A stretch of 64,000 nucleotides of DNA from positions 832,001-896,000 of the forward strand of contig CM000436.1 of the NCBI GenBank assembly GCA_000165345.1, given 5' to 3'. Of this stretch, positions 42,009-64,000 are shown in pieces. Positions within the stretch are counted from its first letter, which is position 1. Each line of letters opens with the position of its first letter. A model generated the notes under the pieces. The model saw only the letters and a program-made list of their open reading frames with translations, was not told the origin of the DNA and did no database searches. Both the position numbers and the translations under genes were made by a program.

Positions 42009-44819
42009 ATGGGCAATTTATTCGGAAAATGTGGCTGTAGGGATTTGACAATATGTAACCTAAATGTATTAAGGCCTGCTCACTCTCAGGATCGTATTTA
42101 TCGCAAAGAATATAAAGTTCCAAATTTTTTAATTGATCATGTTAACTTAGATATTAATATAAAAGACGACGTAACTGTTGTTTCTTCAGTAATAATCATG
42201 AGAAGAAATCCAAATTCATCTTTTAGAGGTGACTTATCATTGGATGGCGATTGCTTGAAACTTGTTTCAGTAAAACTAAACGGCGTAATTTTAGAAAAGA
42301 GTCTGTATAAGGGTTACTTTCAACCCGATGGCCCTGATGGTAAGCTTGTTATTTCAAGTAATTTACTACCAAATAAAGATCAGCAGTTTACACTCGAGAC
42401 AGTTGTTGAAATTTTTCCTGATAGAAATACCAAAAATATGGGATTGTATTATTCTGCAGGAGTTTATTCCACGCAGTGCGAATCGGATGGCTTCAGAAGG
42501 ATAACATTTTTCTTAGATAGACCCGACGTAATGTGTAAATTTAGGGTTAGAATTGAAGGAGATAAAACTAAATCTCCCGTATTGTTGTCAAATGGAAATT
42601 TGCTAGAAAAAGGTGACGTTCAGGGCTCTGAAAATCGGCACTTTGCCATATTTGTGGATCCTTTTCCCAAACCTTGTTATCTTTTTGCGGTTGTTGCTGG
42701 AGTTTTGGGAAGATTGGAGGACAAGTTTATAACAAAATCTGGCAAGACTGTCAGGCTTTTTGTGTACAGTGAGCCCAAGTATGTAGATAGATTGAGATTG
42801 GCAATGGAGTCCTTGAAGCTAGCAATGAAATGGGATGAAGACCGCTTTGGCTTGGAGTATGATCTTGAAATTTTTAATATTGTAGCAGTTGAGTCTTTCA
42901 ATTTTGGTGCAATGGAAAATAAGAGCTTGAACATTTTTAACTGCTCTTGTCTTCTAGCATCAGAGAATATCACCCCTGACTATTTTTTCACGAACATCCT
43001 TTCAATAGTTGGGCATGAATACTTTCATAACTACACAGGTAATAGAGTTACATGTAGAGATTGGTTCCAACTTACTTTGAAGGAAGGCTTGACAGTCTAT
43101 AGGGACCAAGAGTTTTCTCGTGACTGTATTGATAGGTTATCTGAACAGTTAGGAGACATAGAGGTGTTGCGCAACTACCAGTTCCAGGAAGACTCAGGGC
43201 CGCTTGCACATCCTATTAGGCCAGATTCCATTGTTTCAACAAATAATTTATATACAAGCACAGTATATAGGAAGGGGGCAGAAGTTGTAAGGATGTATGA
43301 AACTATCCTTGGCCGTGAGGGATTCCGCAAAGGTATGGATCTTTACTTTGCTCGCCATGATGGCCAGGCAGTTACTTGTGATGACTTCAGAAAAGCTATG
43401 GAAGACGCTAATAATTATAATTTCACACAATTTGAGCGCTGGTACGACCAAGCTGGCACACCTGAAGTTGAGGTTGTTTCTATTGATCACAACAAAGCGG
43501 AGGGGACATGTTCGATTACACTTCGACAACGCTGTAGTCCTACTCCAGAGCAACCTAAAAAGAGACCATTTTATATTCCGGTTATAGTAGGGTTAATTGG
43601 AAAGGATTCATGCAAAGAAATAAGACAGTCGGAAACACTGATTCTCAAAGAACAGCAGCAGACATTTATTCTAGATGGAGTTTGGGAGACACCAGTTGCA
43701 TCGATCCTTAGGGGTTTCTCAGCACCCGTAAATTTAAGGTTTAAAACACCTCGTTCAGACGAGGAGTTGGCATTTCTTTTTGCATTTGATACAGACGAAT
43801 ATAATCGTTTTGATGCAGCTCAAACGTTATATAAAAAAATTCTGATCCAAGCATCTACCAACTCTTCACAAGAAATTTCGCCTAGTTCTGTAATAGAGAG
43901 CATTCTTTCACAAACTATTCTCAGTTGTTTTGAATCGTTTATTTCAAAAATTAAGACGTCTAAAAATCCAAATGGTACTGTTTCTCCAATGGTTGCCTCA
44001 TACACGCTTAGAATCCCAAGTTATTCCCAAGTTTTGGCTTCTATTGCAGAACCAAACTTCGATTTTGTTGTCGAGTCTTTTAATGCATTAACAGTTGCCT
44101 TTGCATCGAGGTTTAAGACTCAAATAGTAGATTTATTCCAGGTTCTTACTGAAGATTTATCGGCGTTGCCTTCTCAGAGCCCATTCATTCATGGTAAAGG
44201 TGTAAATGTTGAAGCTATTGCAATCCGTAGATTATTAAATATTTTACTAGACTTTATTGCAAAACTTGATCCTAGCCTTGGCACTAAGTTGGCTTTTGAG
44301 CAACACAATCGTTTTGATTATATGACAAGTAAGCTTGGTGCAATATCAGCACTACAAATAGCGGATCATAAATCCAGTGAGTGTATTCAAGCTTTGGATT
44401 CTTTGTTACTTGCAACTTCAGATGACGTTTCGACCTTGAATCAATATTTCTCCATTCAGGCAAGTTGTCTTATCCCTGACAATGTTGAGCGTGTAATAAA
44501 TATTTACCATTCTAACCCACAATTTATTAAATATCGTGAAAACCCAACAATCTTCTCCTCTTTGGTTGGCACTTTTGCATCTAATTTTGTTGCGTTCAAC
44601 AGGAAAGATGGGCTTGGGTATTCCTTTGTTGCAGATGCGATAATTTTGATGGATAAAGTAAACCCAATGTCAGCTGCGTCTGTTTCGAGAGCATTTACAA
44701 AGGTCTTGAAACTTGATGAGGGAAGACGCAATCTTCTTAAGGAGAATGTCGTTAGAATACTTCAATCCCCCGGTTTATCGAAAGATACGTCTGAAATCCT
44801 AAAGTCCATCGATTTTTGA
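42009..44819 (+). CDS. M1-family aminopeptidase N, bacterial PepN type
   Basis: A GAMEN motif is followed by HEYFHNYTGNRVTCRDWFQLTLKEGLTVYRDQEFS (HExxH-18-E). This is almost residue-for-residue the gamma-proteobacterial PepN active-site block, and the same subfamily as apicomplexan M1 aminopeptidases. The 936-aa length fits PepN. Confidence 0.9.
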   Translation: MGNLFGKCGCRDLTICNLNVLRPAHSQDRIYRKEYKVPNFLIDHVNLDINIKDDVTVVSSVIIMRRNPNSSFRGDLSLDGDCLKLVSVKLNGVILEKSLYKGYFQPDGPDGKLVISSNLLPNKDQQFTLETVVEIFPDRNTKNMGLYYSAGVYSTQCESDGFRRITFFLDRPDVMCKFRVRIEGDKTKSPVLLSNGNLLEKGDVQGSENRHFAIFVDPFPKPCYLFAVVAGVLGRLEDKFITKSGKTVRLFVYSEPKYVDRLRLAMESLKLAMKWDEDRFGLEYDLEIFNIVAVESFNFGAMENKSLNIFNCSCLLASENITPDYFFTNILSIVGHEYFHNYTGNRVTCRDWFQLTLKEGLTVYRDQEFSRDCIDRLSEQLGDIEVLRNYQFQEDSGPLAHPIRPDSIVSTNNLYTSTVYRKGAEVVRMYETILGREGFRKGMDLYFARHDGQAVTCDDFRKAMEDANNYNFTQFERWYDQAGTPEVEVVSIDHNKAEGTCSITLRQRCSPTPEQPKKRPFYIPVIVGLIGKDSCKEIRQSETLILKEQQQTFILDGVWETPVASILRGFSAPVNLRFKTPRSDEELAFLFAFDTDEYNRFDAAQTLYKKILIQASTNSSQEISPSSVIESILSQTILSCFESFISKIKTSKNPNGTVSPMVASYTLRIPSYSQVLASIAEPNFDFVVESFNALTVAFASRFKTQIVDLFQVLTEDLSALPSQSPFIHGKGVNVEAIAIRRLLNILLDFIAKLDPSLGTKLAFEQHNRFDYMTSKLGAISALQIADHKSSECIQALDSLLLATSDDVSTLNQYFSIQASCLIPDNVERVINIYHSNPQFIKYRENPTIFSSLVGTFASNFVAFNRKDGLGYSFVADAIILMDKVNPMSAASVSRAFTKVLKLDEGRRNLLKENVVRILQSPGLSKDTSEILKSIDF

Positions 44820-45101
44820 GTTTCTATATACTTTTAGAAAACACTTATAGGTCTTATTCTCTTAAATTTATTTTACTGTCTGAAATTTCAGTATAATGTT
44901 TTGGAAGCCTGTAATGCCCCTATTTGGGGCCTCAGGAGGGAGTAGTTAATAGAAACTTATGGAGACCTAGATTTCGGATGAATAGTTTGCAAGGATCAAA
45001 CTTTGATTCTAGTTCCTATAATCTAATTGTATTCGAGTCATGAAGATATAAGAAAAGAACTAAAAATGAGAATATAAGGTTATTAGTGCCCAAAGGCAGT
45101 G

Positions 45102-47897
45102 TTAGCTGCTTAAAAACGATGTTACTAGAGTCTGAACATAGCCATTGTGGGATTTGACAATCTGTAAAAATGTATTTTTATCGGCAAGCCCCAAATAAAT
45201 GGACTTAAGCGTGCTTTGTAGAATAGGAAGAATATTCTCTGAAAAGCTCGATTTTGAGTCTAGAGCTGGCTGCATAGAATTTAATAGATCAAAGAATGAA
45301 TTGATACTAGACGCACTTAGTGAAGTTGGATTGGTTTGAATAGCAAAGCAAATTCCTTGAACTGCATTCATTTTTTCTTGATCGTTACGAACATTAGTTA
45401 GTACCAAAAAAAAACGATCAGCACAAACCCCTAGTCTTCCTCCAACCCTAGAAGGTGCCACCACTGCAACTCTACCGATAGTAATACATGCATTAATTGC
45501 AAGGTTATCTATGTGTGAAGATGAATTACAAGACGTGGTTATTCTGGAAACGAGCATGTCAATTATATGTTCTAAAAAAGGTTCAATAACTGTGAAAATC
45601 TCTGGGAGATTTCCATACATAGCAATTTCTCCTATGGCCCAGGCTGCGTTGTTAGCTATACCAATATTTGGACTTGAAAGATTTAACACTAAAAGTTGCA
45701 GTAATGTAGGTAATAAAGGCTTTAAAAAATCCAAGTTGTCTCCTCCAAACTTGGCTATATCCCCTACACAAGCAAATACACTTTGCTTTATATTTGGATA
45801 GCTTTCATCTTGGCAAAATATGAGAATGTAGTTGGCAAACCCATATCTTTTCAATGTTGGGATTGTAGGCTCCCTCACTGCCTCTACAATCGAACTGACC
45901 AAGTCTAGAGCGCATTCGGCAGTGTCAGGCACTGAATATGAAACTTCTTCTGAATTCTTTAAATTATTTAGAGCTGACATTAGAATGTTTTGAATACAGT
46001 GTTGCAATATTGAGTCTGCAAATCCAGATGCCTTGTTCCCTACTACAGCAAAAATTTTTGCGATTGCATCCATCGAAGCAACTAAACATGGATGGTCTAT
46101 AGGAAAAGATTTCCATTTTGTAATAAGAAGTGGGACCAGGTTATTTTCAAATGTTTGGCTAAATACATTGGGACCAACTGAGAAACATAATGTAGAAATG
46201 GTGTCACATAAAATAAGCAAGTTCCTATATTGATATACGGTCAGTGCCCCAGATATAGTATTCACAATGTCATCAAGGAATGGTATAAGAGAAAGTGATT
46301 GAGCAGAATCCTCAATAAATGTAGCTGTAGCAGAGCAAGCTGCCTCTTCAACACGTTTATTAGGATCAAGCATTCTAGCTAATAGCGCACCAAAAGCGCT
46401 ATTAAGAATTGGTTGGCCTTGCTGAAGCGCTAACCAAGGTGTGAATCTTGAGATGCACCAACATGAAATGCTCCTGATCAGTGGTTTAGAATTTGATGTA
46501 AGTTTGACCAAATAACTCAAGACTCTAGGTAAAAATGGTGATAGTCCTTTAATACAACCTCTAGCAATAGCGCCTAAGACCAAAATTGCACTCTCCTGCT
46601 TCTCCCAGTTGGGATCTTGGAGAGTTGCTTCAATTTTAGGTAATAGCTCTCCCAAAATTTCATCTCCGTATATCACCGATATGTGGTCCAGCGCAAGAGC
46701 TGAGGCTTTTCTTACTGTCCATTGGTTTCCCCATGCTCCGAGCTCTACCTCGTCATCGTTTGATTCAGAGTTATCCGTGCGTCCCTGATGAAACCTAGGG
46801 CCTATAGAGTGAAGGTCATCTTCAGTTTTGTCCTCGAAATGAGAAGGGTCCATTTCAATATAATCAAAATCTGTAAATATAGAATTTTCAAGTAAGCAAA
46901 TGAGTAGTCGAGGTAGAAATGGTCTAAGAATATTTATTCCCTTTTCATTTCTAAGATACAATGGCCAAAACTCAAAACTTTCAAGCCGTAGATTATATGA
47001 ATCACCGCTTGTCTCTTCGCAACAGCACAATACAAAATCAATAATTATATTAACACCTGCTCCGTCAAGGATCACTCCAGGGTCATCCTCCAAAATTGTA
47101 ATAATTCCCATTATAGATAGTAGTCTTATCTGCCTACTTTCCTGTTTTGCCAAAATACCAATTACTTGCCAATATCGCGTGAAAAAGTCATGTAGAGCAT
47201 TACCAGAACTAAAAAGGTGATATTGAGCATATAAAGTGATGCACTTGAAACTAAGATGTACTGCAGTCTCATTCTTACTTAGTATTAAATGCTCACCTTG
47301 AGATATTTGAAAGAGCTTGGGTAATATTAATTGTCTTGACGCGTCAAGAAAAGACATGAGTCTTGGGTGAGTATGCTCCAATATACCTGAATTTTCACCC
47401 AAACAATACTCCAGCTCATCTTCGCATATTTTTATAAGACAATCAAATGCACCATCAATACTATCATTTGTGGCCATATCTAACAACTGAGACAAATGGC
47501 GAAGAGATTCTACCAGTAAAGGTTTTCCTTGTTCTGTATTAACAAATGTGGTAACAATTGTACCAGCAGTAGATCTGATTAACCTCTGGGAGTCATTTAA
47601 TGCATTAAGAGATGTAACTTTGAGATATTCTATATATTCAGAAGAAGAAGGTATTCCATATTGTACAAGATAGTTCTTTAATAAAAGCCCTGCCCTTTGA
47701 CGCACATCCAAACCCTCACTATTCATACCAGAAAATATAAGAGCAAAGTAGCATGGCGCATCAGGGCTATTTATTACAAAGGAATTCAAGGCATTAGTTA
47801 CTTGGAGTTGTACACTGCTTTCAGAAGAATCAGCCTGTCTCAAAATGGACAGCACTTCCTGACATTTTGTTACATCATACTTCCAGGAAGACAACAT
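45102..47897 (-). CDS. importin-beta family HEAT-repeat nuclear transport receptor, transportin (karyopherin beta-2)-like
   Basis: The 931-aa protein is helical-repeat throughout. The N-terminal region aligns with transportin-1, for example DGAFDCLIKICEDELE versus EGAFGALQKICEDSAE, with a preceding importin-N-like segment. Confidence 0.65.
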   Translation of the reverse strand: MLSSWKYDVTKCQEVLSILRQADSSESSVQLQVTNALNSFVINSPDAPCYFALIFSGMNSEGLDVRQRAGLLLKNYLVQYGIPSSSEYIEYLKVTSLNALNDSQRLIRSTAGTIVTTFVNTEQGKPLLVESLRHLSQLLDMATNDSIDGAFDCLIKICEDELEYCLGENSGILEHTHPRLMSFLDASRQLILPKLFQISQGEHLILSKNETAVHLSFKCITLYAQYHLFSSGNALHDFFTRYWQVIGILAKQESRQIRLLSIMGIITILEDDPGVILDGAGVNIIIDFVLCCCEETSGDSYNLRLESFEFWPLYLRNEKGINILRPFLPRLLICLLENSIFTDFDYIEMDPSHFEDKTEDDLHSIGPRFHQGRTDNSESNDDEVELGAWGNQWTVRKASALALDHISVIYGDEILGELLPKIEATLQDPNWEKQESAILVLGAIARGCIKGLSPFLPRVLSYLVKLTSNSKPLIRSISCWCISRFTPWLALQQGQPILNSAFGALLARMLDPNKRVEEAACSATATFIEDSAQSLSLIPFLDDIVNTISGALTVYQYRNLLILCDTISTLCFSVGPNVFSQTFENNLVPLLITKWKSFPIDHPCLVASMDAIAKIFAVVGNKASGFADSILQHCIQNILMSALNNLKNSEEVSYSVPDTAECALDLVSSIVEAVREPTIPTLKRYGFANYILIFCQDESYPNIKQSVFACVGDIAKFGGDNLDFLKPLLPTLLQLLVLNLSSPNIGIANNAAWAIGEIAMYGNLPEIFTVIEPFLEHIIDMLVSRITTSCNSSSHIDNLAINACITIGRVAVVAPSRVGGRLGVCADRFFLVLTNVRNDQEKMNAVQGICFAIQTNPTSLSASSINSFFDLLNSMQPALDSKSSFSENILPILQSTLKSIYLGLADKNTFLQIVKSHNGYVQTLVTSFLSS

Positions 47898-48828
47898 CTG
47901 GGATCCTTCTCTTTAATGGTTTTATTTATGCTGCCGATTTATTCCAGTTTTTATTTGACTAAATAATTATTCGAACCTATTATTTTACCATAAATTTAAG
48001 TGTGCCCCTTTTTGAGCTTTTTTGTACGTTTCCTATTTAGCTTAACTTGTTTAGTACTTAGTTACTCTTAATTCAAACCCCTTTCTTATCCTTGATTCCT
48101 TAATCACAATTTCAGTTTTAATAGGTTTTGTCACAATCTCAATAAGGATATGTCCCGTCTATACTTACGTTAATTATTGTGATGTTAGTGAAGGTTGGGA
48201 AGGAACGAGGCGGCCTAAGTAATTAATTTATTTGCACCTAGGTGTGTTTACAGGCTTGTTAATGTGGGAGTTATCAAGGCTTATAGGTTAGAAAATCAGA
48301 TAAAATCTCAGTCCAATCTTGCTGACATAGATTTGTTAAGCAGCTTAATCACTTTTAAAAAAAGATATAGCGGACGGTAAAGATCCAGGAGAAACTAGAT
48401 ATCATTTCAGAAGCAGGAACAATTAAATAGCAAACAGTTAATACATAGCTCTTCCTCAATAGAGGATCAAGATAAAAACGCAAACATAATAATTCTTAAA
48501 ATCAAAACTCAATATTTGTATTGCTTTGCAGGCTGCATTTAGGCGGGCAGTTCAGATTTTATTACAAATTAATTAAATTAACGTGAATGTCTATCGTCAA
48601 TTGGAATTACGTCTCGTATTGAGACAGATTACAGTTATTTATTAGTTAAAGTTATTTAACATTTTGTTTTGGAAAATAACGTTCTCTTGACAAAGTAATA
48701 TTTATTGCAAAACATTATAAGCGCTGTAATTCCGATCAACTTAAATATTGTTTATATCTCATCAAGAACTTAAGGTATAATTTTGACAATAGTAGGAGAA
48801 ACACTAGGCAAAACAAAAAAAGTAAAAG

Positions 48829-49392
48829 ATGGTTAGATATGCTGTAAGACCCGATACTCCTTCCAAGAGTGTAATGTGCAAAGGTAGCGATCTTCGCGTT
48901 AGTTACAAGAATACATACGAGACAGCAACAGCCATCAAGGGAATGTATCTACTTGATGCTCGCCAATATCTATTGGATGTAATTGCAAAGAAAAGGTGCG
49001 TTCCATTCAGGAGATTCAATGGAGGCGTTGGTAGGACTGCGAAGGCAAATGAATTCAAGCTTACTCAAGGAAGATTTCCGGAAAAGTCATGTAGATTCCT
49101 TCTAGATCTTTTACAAAACGCAGAGAGTAACTGCGACATGAAAGGTTTAGATGTTGACCGTCTTATGCTCGTCTCTGCTGTAGTTACTCATGCTCCATTC
49201 AATAGAAGAAGGACCTTTAGAGCTCATGGACGTATTACTCCTTTCAAAAGCCAACCATGCAATATCCAGCTTATTTTTAAGGAGATAGACGATACTGTTG
49301 AACAACCAAAGAATATTGAAGGGCAGAAAGTTGTCAAGCTTACAAAGAAACAATTAGCTCGCAGAAAATTACGTGTAGGTTCTAAAAATTAG
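48829..49392 (+). CDS. RPL17: 60S ribosomal protein L17 (uL22)
   Basis: MVRYAVRPDTPSKSVMCKGSDLRVSYKNTYETATAIKGM...CVPFRRFNGGVGRTAKA... is collinear with eukaryotic RPL17. Confidence 0.9.
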   Translation: MVRYAVRPDTPSKSVMCKGSDLRVSYKNTYETATAIKGMYLLDARQYLLDVIAKKRCVPFRRFNGGVGRTAKANEFKLTQGRFPEKSCRFLLDLLQNAESNCDMKGLDVDRLMLVSAVVTHAPFNRRRTFRAHGRITPFKSQPCNIQLIFKEIDDTVEQPKNIEGQKVVKLTKKQLARRKLRVGSKN

Positions 49393-49771
49393 TTTTTTTT
49401 TCATTATGAATCCCATTAAATTCATGAGGAACTTTACATTTATCATGTGGAACGACACAAAGTCGTTTTACTATATAATTTCTAGAATTGCGATATAATG
49501 GATTGGCTAGATTTAATTGATGAAATTTTCTCATTTTTTTTCGTTCTGAATGTCTCCTTTGTCTTAGTTTTTATCTTGGAGTTGATTTATCGGCAGTTTG
49601 ATGTAGACCTTTCTCTGTTAGCCCGAGTTTTGTAATCGAGGAGAAATGCGAGGGAAATTCTATGCGATATTTTTTTTTTTGTAAGCCGAAATTCCTTATT
49701 TTTTTATATAATAAAAACGAAGTTTTCGAGTTTATTCAGATTATTGTAGAAATAATTTAACTTACAATAAA

Positions 49772-51460
49772 ATGACTAAGATAAATACAACATACAGAAA
49801 CTCGTCGGGAAAATATTACTACTTCACGACTGCAATAAACTATACTAATGGAACACCGCATATGGGGCACGCATATGAAATAGTAACTTCTGATATTCTT
49901 GTTAGAATTGCAAGGCTATTCGGCTTTAATACAAGATTTCAAACAGGAACTGATGAACATGGGCAAAAAATTGCAGCTACTGCAGAAAAAAAAGGCATAT
50001 CTCCAAAAGAACTTTGCGATGAAAATGTAAAACAATTTAAAAATATGAATGAAAAACTTCAGATTAGTACGGACAGGTTTATTAGAACAACTGATGCTGA
50101 TCATTATGAATCATGTAAGGAGTTATGGAGACGTTGTGAGGCGAAAGGAGACATTTACCTTGGAAAGTATAATGGATGGTATAACGTAAGAGAAGAGAGT
50201 TTTATGACTGAATTAGAAGCAAAAATGCTAAATTATACTGACCCAATTTCGGGATTACCTTTAACAAAGATGGAAGAACCTTCTTACTTTTTCAGAATAA
50301 CTAATTATCTTGAATCAATAAAAAACCACATTATTGACAATCCAGAATTTATACAGCCGGAATCGAGTAGAGAAAGTATATTAGCAAGGTTAGAGGCTCT
50401 TGGCAGCGATTCTGAGGACTTATCTATAAGTAGAGCTAGTTTTTCCTGGGGAGTTCCCGTTCCAAATGACCAGGAACATGTTATGTATGTTTGGTTTGAT
50501 GCTCTAACAAATTATATTACTGGTTTGAAATGGGCTGATTTTGACAATGATCTTGAAGAAAATTCGTTATTTAACAAGTATTGGGAAAATACAGTTCATA
50601 TCGTTGGTAAAGACATTACTTGGTTCCATTCCGTAATCTGGCCTGCGATGCTATTAAGTGTCGGACTCAGCTTGCCAAAAACGATTTTTGCTCATGGATT
50701 TGTTACCGCACCCGACGGTAAAAAAATGAGTAAGAGCTTGGGGAATGTTGTTGATCCATTCGAACAAATTGATAAAATTGGTTCTGATCCATTTAGATAT
50801 TACTTGGCTAGAGAAGGGAGATTTGGGAATGATATTAAATATCAACCTTCTTCCGTTATAGACTATAATAATGGTGAATTAGCTGATACTTATGGGAATC
50901 TTATTTCAAGAATTACAAATTTAACACACAAATTTTGCCAGGGAGTTGCGCCTTCTTTATCTCAATCTTTGTTATTAGATAAACCAGTAGATATTGATAC
51001 AGTTTTCGAAGAATACTATTTGGCTTGGAATTGTTTCCGTATTGATGAGTGCATACAAATAGCAATGGATTTGTCGAGGAATATTAATAAGTTCCTTACT
51101 GACCACGCACCTTGGAACAAAGATAATGGCAAGTCTGATGAAGAGAGGATAGAAATTATTAGAATCGTATTGGAAGGTTCCTACTATATTTCAATTCTGC
51201 TTAGTCCATTTATTACTTTGGCATGTAAGGAGGTTTTCAATAGACTTGGGACTCCAGAGAAAATAATCCCAGAAGTTGATATAAACTATAATAACATTAA
51301 ACCTGGCACGCCAATATTGATTGGCGAACCTCTATTTAAGAGAATTGTGAATAAGGAAGAAAAGACATTCGAAGAGCTTAAAGCAGAGAAAAGAGAAAGA
51401 GAGAAACAAAGAAGATCAGGAAATAAGAAATTAAGTGAAACTAAAGATAAGGGAAAATAG
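49772..51460 (+). CDS. methionyl-tRNA synthetase
   Basis: The class I HIGH motif is present as TPHMGHAYE, and KMSKS as KKMSKSLGN. The MetRS core runs from YYFTTAINYTNGTPHMGHAYEIVTSDILVR, with a Lys-rich C-terminal tail. Confidence 0.9.
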   Translation: MTKINTTYRNSSGKYYYFTTAINYTNGTPHMGHAYEIVTSDILVRIARLFGFNTRFQTGTDEHGQKIAATAEKKGISPKELCDENVKQFKNMNEKLQISTDRFIRTTDADHYESCKELWRRCEAKGDIYLGKYNGWYNVREESFMTELEAKMLNYTDPISGLPLTKMEEPSYFFRITNYLESIKNHIIDNPEFIQPESSRESILARLEALGSDSEDLSISRASFSWGVPVPNDQEHVMYVWFDALTNYITGLKWADFDNDLEENSLFNKYWENTVHIVGKDITWFHSVIWPAMLLSVGLSLPKTIFAHGFVTAPDGKKMSKSLGNVVDPFEQIDKIGSDPFRYYLAREGRFGNDIKYQPSSVIDYNNGELADTYGNLISRITNLTHKFCQGVAPSLSQSLLLDKPVDIDTVFEEYYLAWNCFRIDECIQIAMDLSRNINKFLTDHAPWNKDNGKSDEERIEIIRIVLEGSYYISILLSPFITLACKEVFNRLGTPEKIIPEVDINYNNIKPGTPILIGEPLFKRIVNKEEKTFEELKAEKREREKQRRSGNKKLSETKDKGK

Positions 51461-51646
51461 AGTTATTTAGTTAAATATATATAACTTTAATATAAATTGA
51501 AATAGCTTACTATAAATACCTAAACTCAATGTATTGGAAAGCTGATTAAAATTTTTATATCAAAATTTAAATTAAATAAAAAAATTCAAGTTAGAATTAC
51601 GAGTGTTAATTTCCTAACATCCAGCTTTCTTGAGTCTGATTATTTT

Positions 51647-52960
51647 TTATTTTAAGGATGCTTGGCATAAAGGACAAACTGCGTTTCTGAGTAGCCACAT
51701 GTCAATACAGTCATCGTGGAAAACATGGTTACAAGGAAGGCAACGAGCCATTTCGAATGATGAGAAGTCATTTAAACAAATAATACAATTATCCTGTAGA
51801 AATGAATGTTTGTTAAGCAATAATTCATTTTCTTTTAATTTTTTCCATTCAGAATATGTCTTCACGGGAAGGGATTCGAGCTTGTTAATTGTACACGCTC
51901 TTAATTTATTATCAGAATACTCACTTGAAACAACAGTAGGAAATACAAAGTAGAAGAAGCTGACCATAAATATTATCCTGAATGTGCATATAAGCATTAT
52001 AATTAAATATAGGGGCCATATTCCAGATCTACAGTCAACTTTAATAAGGTCCTTTAGTGAGTATAATGAACCGTTTCCCAGCAATAGGTATGATCTATGG
52101 CCAGCAATCAATGAGTAATCTGCCAATTGTGAATCGCTAAGACTGCCTACAAACTTTCTTGATTGACCTGAAAATGTTTCAACGTTTGGTCTTACTGATA
52201 AGATCCAATAAAATCCAAACATAAACCAAGTATAATATATAAACGATAATACTTTACCTATTTTCCATGCTCTATTTGCGGTTAGTCGCCTAACTGCTTG
52301 TAAAATTTGAATTACTCTCGTACTATTCGAATTAATTCTTTCTCTTTCTAATATAATTTTGTAGTAAAACCTGAATATTCCCTGTAACATTTGAAGAGAC
52401 CCATGAATTAATAACCAGATACATAGAAAAGGGCTATTGCTGAAGTCTGATCTCCAATTCTTAAGTGTTAAGCCTGTCGAAATTAATCCGAGAGAAATGA
52501 AAGAGATCATTCCAATTAATAAATTGCACGAAAGAAACCAAATAGCTTTCTCTGGGTAATTACATACTAGTTGCATGAGAGAATCATCTGAAGCATGCTC
52601 TTGCTGAGACATATTGTTTATAAGAGGATTATTCGAAAGCTGATTTATTCCTGAAACATAGTCGGAGTGATTGCTCGGTGTGATATTTGGAGTAGTTCTT
52701 CCGTAAATGCTTCTTAGTGAGCTTTCAGTTACAGGAGAAGATATTATTACATTGTCCTGGGTTCTAAATAGTGGTTGAATATTCAAATATTTTCTACACC
52801 AGATGTTTATTCTTTCTTTAACCAACATGATTTTGCGAATTGTTTTGTTGCTAAAGTTAGCCTTGCCGGTATTTTGTGTCAGGCTACGAAGAGCCACATG
52901 CTGTTTTTTATGGATGTAATAAGAGACATACCTTTTATAAATACCTAAATTATTATCCAT
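51647..52960 (-). CDS. multi-pass membrane protein with C-terminal RING-H2 finger (E3 ubiquitin ligase-like)
   Basis: Several hydrophobic helices are followed by the C-terminal RING-H2 finger CIICLNDFSSFEMARCLPCNHVFHDDCIDMWLLRNAVCPLC. Confidence 0.75.
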   Translation of the reverse strand: MDNNLGIYKRYVSYYIHKKQHVALRSLTQNTGKANFSNKTIRKIMLVKERINIWCRKYLNIQPLFRTQDNVIISSPVTESSLRSIYGRTTPNITPSNHSDYVSGINQLSNNPLINNMSQQEHASDDSLMQLVCNYPEKAIWFLSCNLLIGMISFISLGLISTGLTLKNWRSDFSNSPFLCIWLLIHGSLQMLQGIFRFYYKIILERERINSNSTRVIQILQAVRRLTANRAWKIGKVLSFIYYTWFMFGFYWILSVRPNVETFSGQSRKFVGSLSDSQLADYSLIAGHRSYLLLGNGSLYSLKDLIKVDCRSGIWPLYLIIMLICTFRIIFMVSFFYFVFPTVVSSEYSDNKLRACTINKLESLPVKTYSEWKKLKENELLLNKHSFLQDNCIICLNDFSSFEMARCLPCNHVFHDDCIDMWLLRNAVCPLCQASLK

Positions 52961-59738: not shown

Positions 59739-60046
59739 TTCTTCATTTTTGTTAGATAAAATTTGTACAATATTTGTGTTGAGAAACTATTTTTACATGC
59801 AGCTATATTAGTCCCCACAAAGCGCCAAGTTACGAAATTAATTGATTTTTCTTATTTTTAACAAGATTAAAGTAATGATGAAGGCGAGTAATAAAAATAG
59901 GTATGTTTATAGAAATAAGTATGCGCAATTAATTTCTGATTCAATTCCTCAGCATTATCGATTTTATTAAGAAAACCTCAATTGAATGTTTAAATGAAGA
60001 TAGAAATTTCCCATTTAAAAATGCATTATTTCAGACTAATCTTGAA

Positions 60047-60460
60047 ATGTTTTGTTCTTCATTAGATGATCACGAATTGCTAGCCAAATTCAATTTCGTT
60101 CAACCTGTGAATTTGACCGGAGTTTCATTCAAACTGTTAGAGAAAGATGTAATAGAAGGGTTTGGACCAAAAAAAATTAAACTTTTCGCCGACGCCACTT
60201 CTTACAGTATAGGAGATGCAGAAATAGAAAACGGAACACAAGAATTTGAGCTGACAAAGAGCCAGCTAATTAGCGGAGAATGCATTGATTTAAAAATGGT
60301 CAAGTTCAAGAATGTTAATTTCATTCAAATTTATATTTCCGAAAACTACGGCAATGAGAACACTAGAATTGGGAAAATAAACATTTATGGTGAAAAAGGT
60401 GATTTTGTAGACATTACCAAATGGAAGCCATACAGAGAAGAGAAGCCTCCCCTAAGTTAG
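60047..60460 (+). CDS. PITH-domain protein (proteasome-interacting thioredoxin C-terminal domain, PITHD1-like); N-terminus unresolved
   Basis: ...HELLAKFNFVQPVNLTGVSF...VKFKNVNFIQIYISENYGNENTRIGKINIYGEKGDFVDI aligns with human PITHD1 (...EELLFNIPFTGNVKLKGIII...SRFSNVYHLSIHISKNFGADTTKVFYIGLRGEWTE). About 40-70 N-terminal residues expected for the domain are absent, so upstream exons may exist. Confidence 0.65.
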   Translation: MFCSSLDDHELLAKFNFVQPVNLTGVSFKLLEKDVIEGFGPKKIKLFADATSYSIGDAEIENGTQEFELTKSQLISGECIDLKMVKFKNVNFIQIYISENYGNENTRIGKINIYGEKGDFVDITKWKPYREEKPPLS

Positions 60461-60959
60461 ATACAAACCAAATTTAGTAAATAATCAGGTAGCACTGCAT
60501 CCGATTCAATCTAACTAAAAGAGAATTTTTAGAAGGATACGTAAAAATTAGAATACTTGTAAATGCGTGGCATCACTATAAACGTACAATCTATCAGAAT
60601 GGAAGGAGAATACTGACGACTCCTCCCAAGCATGTAAACCTATTTGGCGTGCATCAAGTCTTAGATAAGTCGGCCCAGTCTCTACTTGAATTCTCAAATA
60701 TAGGGCAAGTTAAGCCATATGATTCCGAGAAGAATATGGTGAGCCAGAAGTGGAGATAATGCTTACTCGACCGGTCACCTGAAAATGTCTTTTTCGGGAT
60801 GATCCTTCCAGTACATACAATCGGGCCTGGTATCTTAACTTAAAGCTGATTAACTTGCCACCATCTTGAACGGACGCTAATATTACAAAATTGTTTAATC
60901 GCTCTAAATATTCAATAAGACAGTGCAACCTTGTAGAATACTTGTCAAATTATCTAGAC

Positions 60960-63900
60960 TTAGTCGATGTTATTTTCTGCCTCTGATGCCAATCTTACTG
61001 GACTTGAACTGCTTCCACCCTTGCCACCGCAGCCCATGGAACAACCATATGCACACCCATATGCGCATGCAGAACCTGCGCAACTGCATTTTCCGCAGCG
61101 GCCGCTTGAGCAGTTGCAAGAATTACTCTTAGATTCTGGTCTCTTAGATTCTGGTTTCCTAGATTCTGGTATCTTAGATTCTGGTTTCCTAGATTCTGGC
61201 CTCTTAGATTCTGGTCTCCCAGATCCTACTACTTTCTCGGAACCTAAATCCGGTACCTGGGCTAATATCCTGCGAGATGGACCTGTAGAAATAGGTGATG
61301 AGACAGTAGTGGTAGAAGTCCTTAGGCTAGTCGTGACGTATCTGGTAGTAGTGGTGGTAGTGGTGGTAGTAGTGGTAGGTCTTGTAGTAGTAGTGGTAGG
61401 TCTTGTAGTAGTAGTGGTAGGTCTTGTGGTAGTAGTAGTAGGTCTTGTAGTAGTAGTGGTAGATCTTGTAGTAGTAGTGGTAGGTCTTGTGGTAGTAGTG
61501 GTAGGTCTTGTGGTAGTAGTGGTAGATCTCGTAGTAGTAGTGGTAGATCTTGTGGTAGTGGTGGTAGATCTCGTAGTAGTAGTGGTAGGTCTTGTAGTAG
61601 TAGTGGTAGTAGTGGTAGGTCTTGTAGTAGTGGTAGGTCTTGTAGTAGTGGTGGTAGATCTCGTAGTAGTAGTAGTGGTAAATCTTGTGGTAGTAGTAGT
61701 GGATGGCCTCACGCACTCAGATCCTTTGCACTTGGAGCCATCACAGTTAGTACCTTTACAACCGGGATTTTTACACGATGGTGCAGTGCAGACCTCCTCT
61801 GGTTTTTCGCGTACGCAATGATCTGGCTTTTTACAATTTGGCTTACCTGCACAATGGGATTTATAATAGTTGTTGCTGCATGAGCCTACAGCTCTTCCAT
61901 CATACCCGACGATACGAGCAGGGATAGCCTTCACGCCCCTACATCTAGCAGGGACGCACTTAGCACCTTCAAGATGGCAAAGGGAACTAGAGCACCCATC
62001 GCAGTGAACGCGACCGCATTTTCCTCCTACACATCTCGCAGGGGTACATTCTCCTCCGGTGCACTTGGCTGTAGTGCAACTGCATCCATTGCAAGATGGG
62101 TGGCATTTAGCAGGAGTACATTCTGAACCCTTGCATTTAAATCCATCGTATTCATTTCCATTGCACTTAGGCCCAACGCAATATCCTCCTTTGCATGAGC
62201 CCTTCTCACATCCAGTTTGACTTTCGCCTACATTGCAAGAACCAGTCGTGCATGTTCCTGGAGTACAAGATCCAGGTTGGCACCTCGGAGCAACACACTC
62301 ATCGCAATAGCACCTATGTGAGCAATCACCAGCAACACACTTTCCTTTCTTACATTCTCCCTTGACACACTCGCCTTTAGAACACTCCTCCTTTGCACAG
62401 TGATGATTTGGTAATATTTCATGCTTAACGCACCTAGCACCTCTGACCCTAGCAGGAGAACATGACCCTCCAGTGCAATGAGCGGGACGCGCAACGCACC
62501 CCTCGAGCCTTGGAACCTCTGTAGTGCATCCAACACACTTGGTTGAAGAACATGAGCCCGAATGGCAAGACCCTCCTACGCATTTTCCAGGCTTGCATTC
62601 ACCGCCTACGCAATTACCACATTTGCACGAGCCCTTTTCGCATTTTGCATCAGAGCAATCAACCATATGAATGGCAATGTGATTGCAATCTTTCTTAACG
62701 CATGTTGCCTTGTAACACATTTTAGGTGATCCGTCCTTGTTGCTGATACATGAAGGACCAGAAAGGCATGATATTGAGGCGCATTGAGCGGGAGTATACG
62801 CCTTACCAGTTGCAACCTTGCTTAATATCTCCTCTGGAGTAGAAACTTGTGGATCTAATATCTCTTGAACATTAGGCATTTCATCATCATCTTCCTCTAT
62901 GTCCGAAGTGGCTTCTGCTAGCTTTCTATTTGGTGTTACCACTGGGGAGGGCTCTCTAGCAGAGGAATCATCAACATCTGACTCAACCTCATTAGTGGAA
63001 AAATCTGCGTTGGGGTCAACAACCATAGAAGGCTTTGAAAGGGTACCCATTGCTTTAGATTCTAAGGTAGTAAAGAATTGGAGAGCAGAATAATTTGTTG
63101 TTCTTTCGCGGTGTTCGAGAACGGAGACTGCAGTCCTCAAAATGTAAAGAGCCCTTTCTGCCTCTTTATCGCCATCCTCTGCTCTCTTTACAACAACGGA
63201 CTTATGAAAATCCAAAAGATCCTTATTCGGCTCAGACATTATTACGCCATAACTGCCATCACTCTCAACTATGAATGGATCTTTAGTTTGATCTCTTGCC
63301 CATCTAGGAAGTAAAGGAGAATACTTATCAATGTGATATCCTAATGCAAGACTGCTTGCATTAATCTCGTCAATGTTTTGAGATTGAGACTCCACTTTGG
63401 AAAATATTTCGTCCGTGACCTCGTTAGCTGTAGATAACTCTTCGAATAAATCTTCAAAAACATCCAATTCTTGTTTGATATCAGAAACGAGCTTCTCGCG
63501 AGTTCTTTGAGCATGCTGTCGTTGATATAACATTGGAATTTTGTCAATTCTACCATGATTTCTCTCGATATAGTCCAGCTGCGACTCAATCAGTGAGCGC
63601 TGCTCCTTCAAGTGGTTTTTCAAATCATCAAGATTCCTTGGTGTCTTTGGTGATTTACCTGGAATGGGACTTGGAGAGGCGTGAGCAATCAACATAAACG
63701 TAGTAGAAACAAGAATGTCATCTTCCTTGGCAATAACAAATGCACGGGTAGATATACTCTCATTCACCTCATCATCTAGAGAAAGATCAGACACAGATGC
63801 GCTTAGGTTGGACAATTTTTCCCTCTGTGTCTTACAAAGAGACTTCATATAAAGCAAGACTTGAGAATAAACCTTCTTTGCCTCTGTATCAGGTAAAGAT

Positions 63901-64000
63901 GTTATAGTCGGCTCAGCATCATGCAATAATGTTTTCTCAATATTATCAATTAGTTTAATATCCTCCTCACAAAAACCGACAATTCCTCTTTTAGTTGGAG
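60960..64000 (-). CDS. large modular Cys-rich / Thr-rich mucin-like protein, 5'-partial (open frame continues past window end)
   Basis: The frame stays open to position 64000. The track start at 63926 is a TTG. N to C, the protein has an acidic/coiled region, then about 330 aa of hexad C-x2-G-x-C repeats (GECKPGKCVGGSCHSGSC...), then about 25 (T5-R-[PS]) units, then KRPESRKPESKIPESRKPESKRPESK, then the tail CNCSSGRCGKCSCAGSACAYGCAYGCSMGCGGKGG. Confidence 0.7.
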   Translation of the reverse strand, partial: PTKRGIVGFCEEDIKLIDNIEKTLLHDAEPTITSLPDTEAKKVYSQVLLYMKSLCKTQREKLSNLSASVSDLSLDDEVNESISTRAFVIAKEDDILVSTTFMLIAHASPSPIPGKSPKTPRNLDDLKNHLKEQRSLIESQLDYIERNHGRIDKIPMLYQRQHAQRTREKLVSDIKQELDVFEDLFEELSTANEVTDEIFSKVESQSQNIDEINASSLALGYHIDKYSPLLPRWARDQTKDPFIVESDGSYGVIMSEPNKDLLDFHKSVVVKRAEDGDKEAERALYILRTAVSVLEHRERTTNYSALQFFTTLESKAMGTLSKPSMVVDPNADFSTNEVESDVDDSSAREPSPVVTPNRKLAEATSDIEEDDDEMPNVQEILDPQVSTPEEILSKVATGKAYTPAQCASISCLSGPSCISNKDGSPKMCYKATCVKKDCNHIAIHMVDCSDAKCEKGSCKCGNCVGGECKPGKCVGGSCHSGSCSSTKCVGCTTEVPRLEGCVARPAHCTGGSCSPARVRGARCVKHEILPNHHCAKEECSKGECVKGECKKGKCVAGDCSHRCYCDECVAPRCQPGSCTPGTCTTGSCNVGESQTGCEKGSCKGGYCVGPKCNGNEYDGFKCKGSECTPAKCHPSCNGCSCTTAKCTGGECTPARCVGGKCGRVHCDGCSSSLCHLEGAKCVPARCRGVKAIPARIVGYDGRAVGSCSNNYYKSHCAGKPNCKKPDHCVREKPEEVCTAPSCKNPGCKGTNCDGSKCKGSECVRPSTTTTTRFTTTTTTRSTTTTTRPTTTTRPTTTTTTTTRPTTTTTRSTTTTTRSTTTTTRSTTTTTRPTTTTTRPTTTTTRSTTTTTRPTTTTTRPTTTTTRPTTTTTRPTTTTTTTTTTTRYVTTSLRTSTTTVSSPISTGPSRRILAQVPDLGSEKVVGSGRPESKRPESRKPESKIPESRKPESKRPESKSNSCNCSSGRCGKCSCAGSACAYGCAYGCSMGCGGKGGSSSSPVRLASEAENNID
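61128..61226. repeat. 15-nt tandem repeat (agattctggtNtcYt) about 6.5 copies, coding (RPESK)n on the minus strand
   Basis: The sequence is ttagattctggtctcttagattctggtttcctagattctggtatcttagattctggtttcctagattctggcctcttagattctggtctcc. Confidence 0.8.
61322..61705. repeat. 18-21-nt tandem minisatellite (ggtaggtcttgtagtagtagt / ggtagatctcgtagtagtagt variants), coding for (TTTTTR[PS])n on the minus strand
   Basis: About 20 near-identical head-to-tail units are visible directly. They are read as Thr5-Arg-Pro/Ser in the gene frame. The other frames produce the spurious VVVVVG and YYYH track ORFs. Confidence 0.85.

What the first reader, a model, noticed from the sequence alone, without database searches (positions are those of the whole stretch)
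60960..64000. Partial gene for a modular surface-type protein: C-x2-G-x-C hexad domain + (T5-R-P/S) mucin array + (RPESK)n + Cys/Gly tail
I do not recognise this architecture as a described family. The hexad region has about 330 aa of strictly periodic C-x2-G-x-C (KCVGGSCHSGSCSSTKCVGC...GECTPARCVGGKCGRVHCDGC), reminiscent of metal- or disulfide-knotted repeats. It is followed by about 25 perfect T-T-T-T-T-R-[PS] units, a classic O-glycosylation substrate with a regularly placed basic residue. A charged RPESK pentapeptide array follows, then a terminal CxCxxGxCGKCSCAGSACAYGCAYGC tail. In an apicomplexan, Thr-mucin plus cysteine modules usually mark secreted or surface adhesins involved in invasion. 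Here the regular Arg spacing and the hexad Cys domain are atypical, and the N-terminal part has no obvious signal peptide within the window because the gene runs off the edge.
Basis: seen in the sequence. Interest (0 to 1): 0.65.

Follow-up and report, generated by a model that had tools for sequence, protein, structure and literature searches.

The report
Cryptosporidium secreted cysteine-repeat mucin cgd8_3520
This is the 3' nine-tenths of cgd8_3520, a gene found only in Cryptosporidium that is already annotated but has not been studied; it encodes a very abundant secreted protein with no membrane anchor, made of a helical head, a 5-residue cysteine repeat, a threonine mucin stretch and a cysteine/glycine tail.

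Summary
A minus-strand frame, open from the window edge to a TAA at 60960-60962, encodes the four modules in the stated order.

- **Corrections:** the cysteine period is 5 residues (C-x4-C), not 6, and it runs in blocks. There are 16 Thr-run units, not about 25.
- **Identity:** published qPCR primers and gene order identify it as Cryptosporidium parvum cgd8_3520.
- **Relatives:** orthologues in C. hominis, C. meleagridis, C. bovis, a fourth species and C. serpentis supply the missing 121 N-terminal residues, including a signal peptide. Two are annotated [quoted passage not shown].
- **Real gene:** dN/dS against C. hominis is 0.15 overall and 0.06 in the cysteine array.
- **No anchor, no known domain:** there is no transmembrane or GPI signal and no Pfam domain. 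An exhaustive search with the N-terminal domain found relatives only in Cryptosporidium.
- **Published data:** very high transcript levels in early/asexual stages, and enrichment in pull-downs of the dense-granule protein DG8 at 3 h post-infection.

Best reading: a soluble, O-GalNAc-decorated protein released from secretory granules into the vacuole and host-parasite interface. It is not a proven surface adhesin and not an oocyst-wall protein. The fold of the cysteine array is unresolved.

The parts
60960..64000 (-). Partial coding sequence of cgd8_3520: the last 1012 codons plus the stop; the 5' ~121 codons lie beyond the window.
   Evidence: The frame is open from 63998 to TAA at 60960-60962. 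The protein is 96% identical to C. hominis P0001. The published cgd8_3520 qPCR primers map at 63731-63752 and 63872-63893.
63009..63998 (-). N-terminal non-repeat domain (fragment aa 1-330): an elongated alpha-helical bundle, net charge -14.
62784..63008 (-). Acidic Asp/Glu-rich linker (aa 331-405), net charge -14.
   Evidence: Composition. Its length varies between species.
61713..62783 (-). Cysteine pentad/decad array (aa 406-762): 63 Cys, consensus C-[VTK]-[GKP]-G-[SKE], net charge +20.
   Evidence: Spacing statistics and shuffle test. dN/dS is 0.063, the lowest of any module. Most Cys columns are invariant across the five aligned sequences from four intestinal-clade species. No Pfam or PDB relative was found.
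61329..61712 (-). Basic Thr mucin array (aa 763-890): 16 Thr-run+Arg units, 91 Thr, 17 Arg/Lys and no acidic residues.
   Evidence: TRF finds period 21/42/63 at 61343-61702. Copy number varies among C. hominis isolates.
61218..61328 (-). Ser/Thr/Pro spacer (aa 891-927).
   Evidence: Translation; conserved among the C. parvum, C. hominis and C. meleagridis sequences.
61128..61217 (-). Six [RKI]PES[KR] pentapeptide repeats (aa 928-957).
   Evidence: TRF finds period 15 at 61126-61218; motif positions; unit number varies between species.
61020..61127 (-). Cys/Gly(/Tyr) tail (aa 958-993), with 9 Cys in 36 residues.
   Evidence: Translation and composition. The tail is present in the intestinal and C. 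bovis-type orthologues but not in C. serpentis.
60963..61019 (-). Hydrophilic C-terminus ending LASEAENNID. The terminal motif is conserved to C. serpentis (ASLAEESYD), and there is no GPI-type hydrophobic end.
   Evidence: Alignment and hydropathy scan.

Best explanation
The region is the 3' 90% of C. parvum cgd8_3520, a single-exon, Cryptosporidium-restricted gene. It encodes an abundant secretory protein of about 1130 aa that has no membrane anchor.

Shown:
- The gene's identity.
- Its conservation and purifying selection.
- A signal peptide in the orthologues.
- The absence of a transmembrane or GPI signal.
- Very high transcript levels in early/asexual stages.
- Protein present at 3 h post-infection and enriched in pull-downs of the dense-granule protein DG8.

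Inferred mechanism:
- The protein is made in zoites, stored in dense or small secretory granules, and discharged at or after invasion into the parasitophorous vacuole and host-parasite interface.
- The acidic helical head is the specific interaction module.
- The 5/10-residue cysteine repeat forms a disulfide-stapled, protease-resistant rod.
- The Arg-punctuated Thr array is densely O-GalNAc-modified by the parasite's GalNAc transferases, giving a stiff, basic 'bottle-brush'.
- The terminal Cys/Gly tail allows intermolecular disulfide cross-linking.
- Together these let the protein contribute to the lectin-reactive glycoprotein matrix of the vacuole and interface.
For: **Identity**
- Primer matches and gene order identify the gene.

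**Orthologues and constraint**
- Orthologues with the same module order and a signal peptide exist. The C. hominis gene is a single exon on chromosome 8, next to the PITH gene.
- dN/dS against C. hominis is 0.15 overall and 0.063 in the Cys array.
- There is no hydrophobic segment other than the signal peptide.

**Expression**
- RT-qPCR signal is about 1e-3 to 1e-2 at 2-24 h and falls to 4e-5 to 1e-3 by 72 h. This is roughly 1000-fold above the neighbouring genes (PMC3305300 supplement).
- It is the 4th most abundant parasite transcript in infected mouse ileum, listed beside gp40 and gp900 (PMC8852703).

**Protein**
- In the GFP-DG8-C pull-down it gave 22 peptides and 84 PSMs, log2FC 3.99, p=0.07. 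Gp900 in that sheet was at -1.04 (PMC13241007 S1 Table).
- That paper states that the additional anti-DG8 partners are enriched for predicted dense-granule and small-granule proteins.

**Glycosylation**
- C. parvum GalNAc transferases nearly saturate consecutive-Thr arrays in Gp20 (PMC5549699).
Against: - No localisation experiment or hyperLOPIT assignment for cgd8_3520 could be read here.
- The pull-down enrichment could reflect abundance or stickiness. One of the two experiments has p=0.07.
- No glycopeptide of this protein has been reported; one search lists four other proteins as the source of nearly all O-glycopeptides found.
- The rod and disulfide model for the Cys array is inference only. 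AF2 gave pLDDT 31.
- C. serpentis replaces 43 of the 63 Cys and lacks both the Thr array and the Cys/Gly tail. Those modules therefore cannot be essential to the ancestral function.
Confidence: 0.6

Rival explanations
1. It is a micronemal or surface-shed adhesin or lubricant like gp900. It would be released apically during gliding and attachment and bind host glycans through its basic mucin half.
For: It has a Thr mucin array with basic punctuation like gp900's KP-T12-K. Its transcript level is among its highest at 2 h and it ranks beside gp40 and gp900 in vivo. The C-terminal half has a net charge of about +45, which could bind sulfated or sialylated glycans.
Against: It has no TM or GPI anchor and no TSP, EGF, Apple or lectin domain. 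It is enriched with DG8 and predicted dense/small-granule proteins, while gp900 is not enriched in the GFP-DG8-C pull-down.
Confidence: 0.22
2. It is a structural oocyst-wall or tether protein (COWP/POWP-like), cross-linked through its many cysteines.
For: It has periodic cysteines and a Cys/Gly/Tyr tail reminiscent of eggshell proteins (recalled from memory). [quoted passage not shown]
Against: Its transcript is highest at 2-24 h and lowest at 72 h, whereas COWP6, COWP7, POWP3 and POWP4 spike at 48-72 h. The protein is present in infected cells at 3 hpi. It does not appear in the supplementary files held for the COWP paper, which include its TMT proteomics; those files may be truncated.
Confidence: 0.07
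3. The long frame is an artefact. On this view, repeat-driven assembly or chance keeps a frame open across low-complexity DNA, and the region is not a real gene.
For: Repeats generate phantom ORFs on the other strand and in another frame.
Against: The frame is intact in at least five species, and the C. hominis orthologue lies next to the same PITH neighbour. There is strong purifying selection. The gene yields 16-22 unique peptides in MS and an abundant transcript.
Confidence: 0.01
4. The cysteine array is a metal-binding, metallothionein-like module rather than a disulfide scaffold.
For: It has dense Cys with 13 His in 357 aa. Cys-to-Ser swaps are tolerated in C. serpentis.
Against: The protein enters the oxidising secretory pathway. 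The spacing is a regular C-x4-C with few CxC or CxxC clusters. There is no Pfam metallothionein hit.
Confidence: 0.05

Closest known systems
Gp900 (cgd7_4020), the Cryptosporidium micronemal mucin
   Same: Both have a signal peptide, long Thr runs punctuated by a basic residue plus Pro, cysteine-containing flanking domains (recalled from memory) and very high expression.
   Different: Gp900 has a C-terminal transmembrane helix; cgd8_3520 has none. One search's whole-protein search returned only orthologues, although that tool retrieves Cys-rich sequence poorly. The two proteins behave oppositely in the GFP-DG8-C pull-down.
Gp20 (cgd7_1280) and gp40/15, small secreted O-GalNAc glycoproteins of C. 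parvum
   Same: Their consecutive Thr/Ser arrays have been shown by MS to be nearly saturated with HexNAc. The same modification is expected on the T5R units.
   Different: They have no cysteine repeat and no helical head. Gp15 is GPI-anchored. No glycopeptides have yet been observed for cgd8_3520.
CpPOWP3 (cgd3_1540) and the COWPs
   Same: CpPOWP3 is annotated as a large signal-peptide protein that is cysteine-rich, threonine-rich and a possible mucin.
   Different: The POWPs and COWPs are expressed late, at 48-72 h, whereas cgd8_3520 is expressed early. No sequences were compared directly.
Gel-forming mucins (an analogy of architecture only)
   Same: Both have a central O-glycosylated Pro/Thr/Ser domain flanked by Cys-rich regions, which in mucins drive disulfide multimerisation (established knowledge).
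   Different: No VWD, C8, TIL or CTCK domain is detected. Multimerisation was not tested.
Beta-solenoid repeat proteins (pentapeptide-repeat proteins; disulfide-braced insect antifreeze beta-helices)
   Same: Both have short, strictly spaced repeats with small residues at fixed positions. The only PDB sequence hits to the Cys array, both non-significant, are solenoids: 2xt4 at E=0.87 and 4n69 at E=0.28.
   Different: The hits are not significant. The consensus C-[VTK]-[GKP]-G-x lacks the central Leu/Phe of pentapeptide repeats. There is no Pfam hit, and AF2 gave no confident fold.

Membership tests
cgd8_3520 orthologue group (Cryptosporidium 'secreted protein with cysteine rich repeats and a mucin like threonine rich repeat') | High full-length similarity with the same module order. 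| tested here: met
   Identity is 96%, 90%, 54% and 54% to P0001-P0004, with collinear modules. C. serpentis P0009 scores E=1e-86 on the N domain and 214 bits on the Cys-domain profile.
cgd8_3520 orthologue group (Cryptosporidium 'secreted protein with cysteine rich repeats and a mucin like threonine rich repeat') | Genomic position on chromosome 8 next to the PITH gene cgd8_3510, and a match to the published gene-specific primers. | tested here: met
   Primers match at 63731-63752 and 63872-63893, and the cgd8_3510 primer matches at 60108. The C. hominis locus has the same neighbours.
Cryptosporidium mucin-like O-GalNAc glycoproteins | N-terminal signal peptide. | tested here: met
   All full-length orthologues have one. 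The window itself lacks the 5' end.
Cryptosporidium mucin-like O-GalNAc glycoproteins | Arrays of consecutive Ser/Thr. | tested here: met
   There are 91 Thr in 128 residues, in 16 units.
Cryptosporidium mucin-like O-GalNAc glycoproteins | Demonstrated O-linked GalNAc or lectin binding. | not testable with these tools
   No glycopeptide of this protein appears in PMC5549699.
Membrane-anchored zoite surface adhesins (gp900/TRAP/gp15 type) | Transmembrane helix or GPI-addition signal. | tested here: not met
   The highest KD-19 window outside the signal peptide is 1.26, and the last 19 residues are hydrophilic.
Membrane-anchored zoite surface adhesins (gp900/TRAP/gp15 type) | A recognised adhesive domain (TSP1, EGF, Apple/PAN or lectin). 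| tested here: not met
   Pfam gives nothing at E<=10 on each module.
COWP/POWP oocyst wall proteins | Expression in late, sexual stages. | tested here: not met
   The published time course peaks at 2-24 h and is lowest at 72 h. COWP and POWP transcripts spike at 48-72 h.
COWP/POWP oocyst wall proteins | Sequence similarity to COWP Cys-rich repeats. | tested here: inconclusive
   One search returned only orthologues. However, the word-index search cannot retrieve even the orthologues from the Cys domain alone, and no COWP sequence was compared directly.
Pentapeptide-repeat proteins (Pfam Pentapeptide families) | Tandem A(D/N)LXX units with a central Leu/Phe, detectable by the Pfam models. | tested here: not met
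   There is no Pfam hit. The consensus is C-[VTK]-[GKP]-G-[SKE]. The PDB hit 2xt4 at E=0.87 is not significant.
Gel-forming mucins | VWD/C8/TIL assemblies and a C-terminal cystine knot. | tested here: not met
   No Pfam hits.

The most novel reading that the evidence does not exclude
The 5/10-residue cysteine repeat could be a previously undescribed, Cryptosporidium-specific disulfide-laddered repeat fold, possibly solenoid-like, that forms a rigid stalk. Together with the basic O-GalNAc array and the terminal Cys/Gly tail, it would polymerise cgd8_3520 into a major structural glycoprotein matrix of the parasitophorous vacuole and host-parasite interface. It could then be a principal ligand of the GalNAc lectins used to stain the vacuole.
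Probability: 0.15. Interest if true: 0.6.

Novelty: new member of a known kind. Interest (0 to 1): 0.35.

Why it matters
Cryptosporidium is a leading cause of childhood diarrhoea, and there is no vaccine and no fully effective drug. cgd8_3520 is among the most abundant parasite transcripts in vivo. It is secreted, is restricted to the genus, and is pulled down with the DG8/SG4 interface complex, yet in a 2026 dataset it is still called an 'uncharacterized secreted protein'. If it is a main glycoprotein of the vacuole and interface, it is a candidate antigen and a marker of that compartment. Its Thr-unit copy number varies between isolates, so it could also be a typing locus. Its cysteine repeat has no curated family and would be worth a structure. 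The gene and its architecture are already in public annotation, however, so the finding is a pointer to a neglected gene and not a discovery.

Tried and rejected
- **AF2 of the Cys array.** With a 5-sequence alignment the model had pLDDT 31.5 and was unusable, so no fold search was run on it.
- **Large protein database, Cys domain alone.** Both the alignment query and the single-sequence query returned nothing, not even the orthologues. A local hmmsearch with the same profile scores those orthologues at 530-690 bits. These two searches therefore reflect a retrieval limitation and are not evidence of absence.
- **AFDB50 fold search.** The library was not available.
- **PDB sequence searches.** Only non-significant hits were found.
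- **Literature under the annotation phrase and under 'sporozoite cysteine-rich protein'.** No papers were found.
- **Key papers not held.** The hyperLOPIT paper (Guerin 2023), the single-cell atlas (Walzer 2024) and Chatterjee 2010 were not available, so the spatial-proteomics class and the cell-type expression could not be read.
- **Supplements without the gene.** The COWP paper, the dual-transcriptome paper and the 2026 rhoptry preprint do not list it.
- **Artefact and oocyst-wall readings.** Both were considered and rejected; see the rival explanations.
Full report
**1. What is in the sequence**

On the minus strand, one frame is open from the window edge (63998) to a TAA at 60960-60962. 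It gives 1012 codons ending ...LASEAENNID*. The modules, in order, are as follows.
- A non-repeat, acidic part: aa 1-330, window 63009-63998.
- An Asp/Glu linker: 62784-63008.
- A 357-aa cysteine array: 61713-62783, with 63 Cys and 48 Gly.
- A Thr array: 61329-61712, with 91 Thr and 17 Arg/Lys.
- A short spacer.
- Six [RKI]PES[KR] units: 61128-61217.
- A Cys/Gly tail: 61020-61127.
- A hydrophilic C-terminus.

Tandem Repeats Finder reports the 21/42/63-bp array at 61343-61702 and the 15/30-bp array at 61126-61224.

**2. Corrections to the observation**

- The commonest Cys-Cys spacing is 5 residues. It accounts for 37 of the gaps, and 10 is the next in-register value. The unit is therefore a pentad, C-[VTK]-[GKP]-G-[SKE], and not a hexad.
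- Residue autocorrelation is as strong at lag 10 as at lag 5 in this protein. In the C. serpentis orthologue it is clearly stronger at lag 10, which points to a decapeptide super-repeat.
- The array is broken into in-register blocks of 3-12 pentads. It is not strictly periodic.
- Shuffling the same residues gives 5.0 +/- 2.2 such spacings (maximum 17 in 10,000), against 37 observed.
- There are 16 Thr-run+Arg units, of which 13 match TTTTTR[PS]. There are not about 25.

**3. Identity**

The window is AT-rich, at about 27-43% GC.

A protein search with the N-terminal and Cys parts found four clusters:
- C. hominis, 96% identity, named 'putative Secreted Protein'.
- C. meleagridis, 90% identity.
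- C. bovis, 54% identity.
- A fourth species, also 54% identity.

The last two are named 'secreted (protein) with cysteine rich repeats and a mucin like threonine rich repeat'.

The C. hominis gene is a single exon on LN877954.1, a 1.32-Mb record that I take to be chromosome 8. It has the same neighbours as here, a PITH-domain gene and a 1425-aa ORF.

Gene order fixes the identifier:
- The M1 aminopeptidase at 42009-44819 is cgd8_3430.
- The PITH gene is cgd8_3510, annotated 'thioredoxin-like protein, fragment' (PMC3542205).
- The next gene is therefore cgd8_3520.

Primers confirm it. The published cgd8_3520 reverse qPCR primer (Mauzy et al. 2012, PMC3305300, supplementary file 3) matches 63731-63752 exactly. 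The forward primer matches 63872-63893 apart from one extra C in the printed primer. The cgd8_3510 primer matches inside the PITH ORF.

**4. It is a real, constrained gene**

Codon-aligned against C. hominis, dN/dS by module is:

| Module | dN/dS |
|---|---|
| Whole fragment | 0.15 |
| Helical domain | 0.13 |
| Cys array | 0.063 |
| Thr array | 0.20 |
| Last 55 codons | 0.75 |

Most Cys columns are invariant across the five aligned sequences, which come from four species. The opposite-strand poly-Val ORF and the alternative-frame Tyr/His ORF over the Thr array are by-products of the repeats.

**5. Missing 5' end and topology**

The orthologues add about 121 N-terminal residues that begin with a classic signal peptide. 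A Kyte-Doolittle scan finds no other hydrophobic segment, and the C-terminus is hydrophilic. The protein is therefore predicted to be soluble and secreted, with no TM or GPI anchor.

**6. Domains**

- Pfam gives nothing for any module at E<=10. The only hit is a sub-threshold coiled-coil match.
- An exhaustive HMMER profile search of the N-terminal region against 1.84 billion representative proteins found only three sequences. They are the C. meleagridis representative, a 997-aa C. serpentis protein (E=1e-86) and a 113-aa fragment. The head domain is therefore genus-restricted at HMMER sensitivity.
- AF2 on a six-sequence alignment models the head domain as a disordered N-terminal ~90 residues followed by long 25-45-residue helices. 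pLDDT is about 90 over residues 90-320 and pTM is 0.68.
- The Cys array could not be modelled (pLDDT 31.5).
- Its profile has no significant PDB relative. The only hits are two beta-solenoid proteins, at E=0.87 and E=0.28. I treat these as a lead and not as evidence.
- Two attempts to search the large protein database with the Cys array alone failed technically. Not even the orthologues were retrieved, although they score 530-690 bits locally. Whether this repeat exists outside the genus is therefore untested.

**7. Comparative anatomy**

The module order is conserved in the intestinal species and in the C. bovis-type species. The numbers of Thr units and PES units vary. Among C. hominis isolates the Thr array has 15-24 Arg-punctuated units, so it is a variable-number repeat.

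The gastric species C. serpentis differs in several ways:
- It keeps the head domain.
- It keeps the V-G-G / x-P-A scaffold of the repeat and the terminal ...A-E-x-x-[IY]-[DE] motif.
- It retains only 20 of the 63 Cys. Another 20 become Ser, and the remaining Cys are spaced 10 apart.
- It has a Ser/Lys-rich low-complexity region in place of the Thr array and the Cys/Gly tail.

The mucin and many of the cysteines are therefore lineage-specific elaborations on an older repeat scaffold.

**8. Published data on cgd8_3520**

- **Time course.** RT-qPCR signal is about 1e-3 to 1e-2 at 2-24 h and falls to 4e-5 to 1e-3 at 72 h. This is roughly three orders of magnitude above the adjacent genes (PMC3305300 supplement). 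The same paper reports COWP6, COWP7, POWP3 and POWP4 spiking at 48-72 h.
- **In vivo RNA-seq.** In infected mouse ileum it is the 4th most abundant parasite transcript, listed with gp40, gp900 and CP2 (PMC8852703).
- **Pull-downs.** A 2026 study of the host-parasite interface (PMC13241007) used lysates of cells infected for 3 h.
  - In the GFP-DG8-C pull-down it is also enriched: log2FC 3.99, p=0.07, 22 peptides and 84 PSMs. Gp900 in that sheet is at -1.04.
  - The authors state that the extra partners are enriched for predicted dense-granule and small-granule proteins.
- **Still unnamed.** It remains 'Uncharacterized Secreted Protein' in that dataset, and it is absent from the protein tables of a 2025 review.
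- **Glycosylation context.** Glycoproteomics shows that C. parvum GalNAc transferases nearly saturate consecutive Thr in Gp20, and that gp900 contains KP-T12-K units. No cgd8_3520 glycopeptide is listed (PMC5549699).

**9. Interpretation**

The best-supported reading is an abundant, soluble, granule-stored glycoprotein that is released around invasion into the vacuole and interface.

The following steps are inferred and not shown:
- The acidic helical head is the interaction module.
- The Cys repeat is a disulfide-stapled spacer.
- The basic Thr array is an O-GalNAc brush.
- The Cys/Gly tail is a possible cross-linking site.

The charge split (N half about -28, C half about +45) would allow head-to-tail association or binding to acidic host glycans.

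A gp900-like shed adhesin remains possible (about 0.2). An oocyst-wall role is unlikely on expression timing. An assembly artefact is excluded.

**10. Novelty and score**

What remains open is its function, its localisation and the fold of a cysteine repeat that has no curated family. I rate it as a member of a known kind, the Cryptosporidium secreted mucin-like glycoproteins, with lineage-specific domains. Interest is 0.35.

Noticed in passing
window 59875-60460 (+): The neighbouring PITH-domain gene cgd8_3510 is annotated in the literature as 'thioredoxin-like protein, fragment'. A spliced model gives an intact 177-aa ORF: exon 59875-59900, a 52-nt GT..AG intron at 59901-59952, and exon 59953-60460. 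This matches one C. hominis gene call, so the 'fragment' label probably reflects a missed intron.
   Followed up: partly
window 60967-61821 (+) and 61327-61716 (-): Two long phantom ORFs overlie the Thr array: a 284-aa poly-Val ORF on the opposite strand and a 129-aa Tyr/His-rich ORF in another frame. They are by-products of the ACN-codon repeat and are not genes.
   Followed up: yes
window 63872-63893: The published forward qPCR primer for cgd8_3520 (Mauzy 2012 supplement) has one extra C compared with the window sequence (GGCC versus GGC). The reverse primer matches exactly.
   Followed up: yes
window 60963-60992 (last ~10 codons): The extreme C-terminal motif LASEAENNID is conserved as far as C. 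serpentis (ASLAEESYD), although the flanking low-complexity sequence is not. It may be a short sorting or processing motif.
   Followed up: no
P0001/P0005/P0008 (C. hominis orthologues), equivalent to window 61329-61712: The number of Thr-run units differs among C. hominis isolates, with 15, 16 and 24 Arg-punctuated units giving proteins of 1126, 1133 and 1188 aa. The array is therefore a variable-number tandem repeat and might serve as a typing marker.
   Followed up: partly
window 60461-60959: The ~500-bp region between the convergent 3' ends of cgd8_3510 and cgd8_3520 is conserved between this window and C. hominis. The whole 59740-60960 alignment is 98% identical, apart from one small indel near 60530.
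   Followed up: no
window 42009-52960: The upstream neighbours are housekeeping genes: an M1 aminopeptidase (cgd8_3430), a HEAT-repeat importin-like protein, ribosomal protein L17/L22, methionyl-tRNA synthetase (a known drug target, recalled from memory) and a RING-finger protein. There is no cluster of secreted-protein genes around cgd8_3520 on this side.
   Followed up: partly
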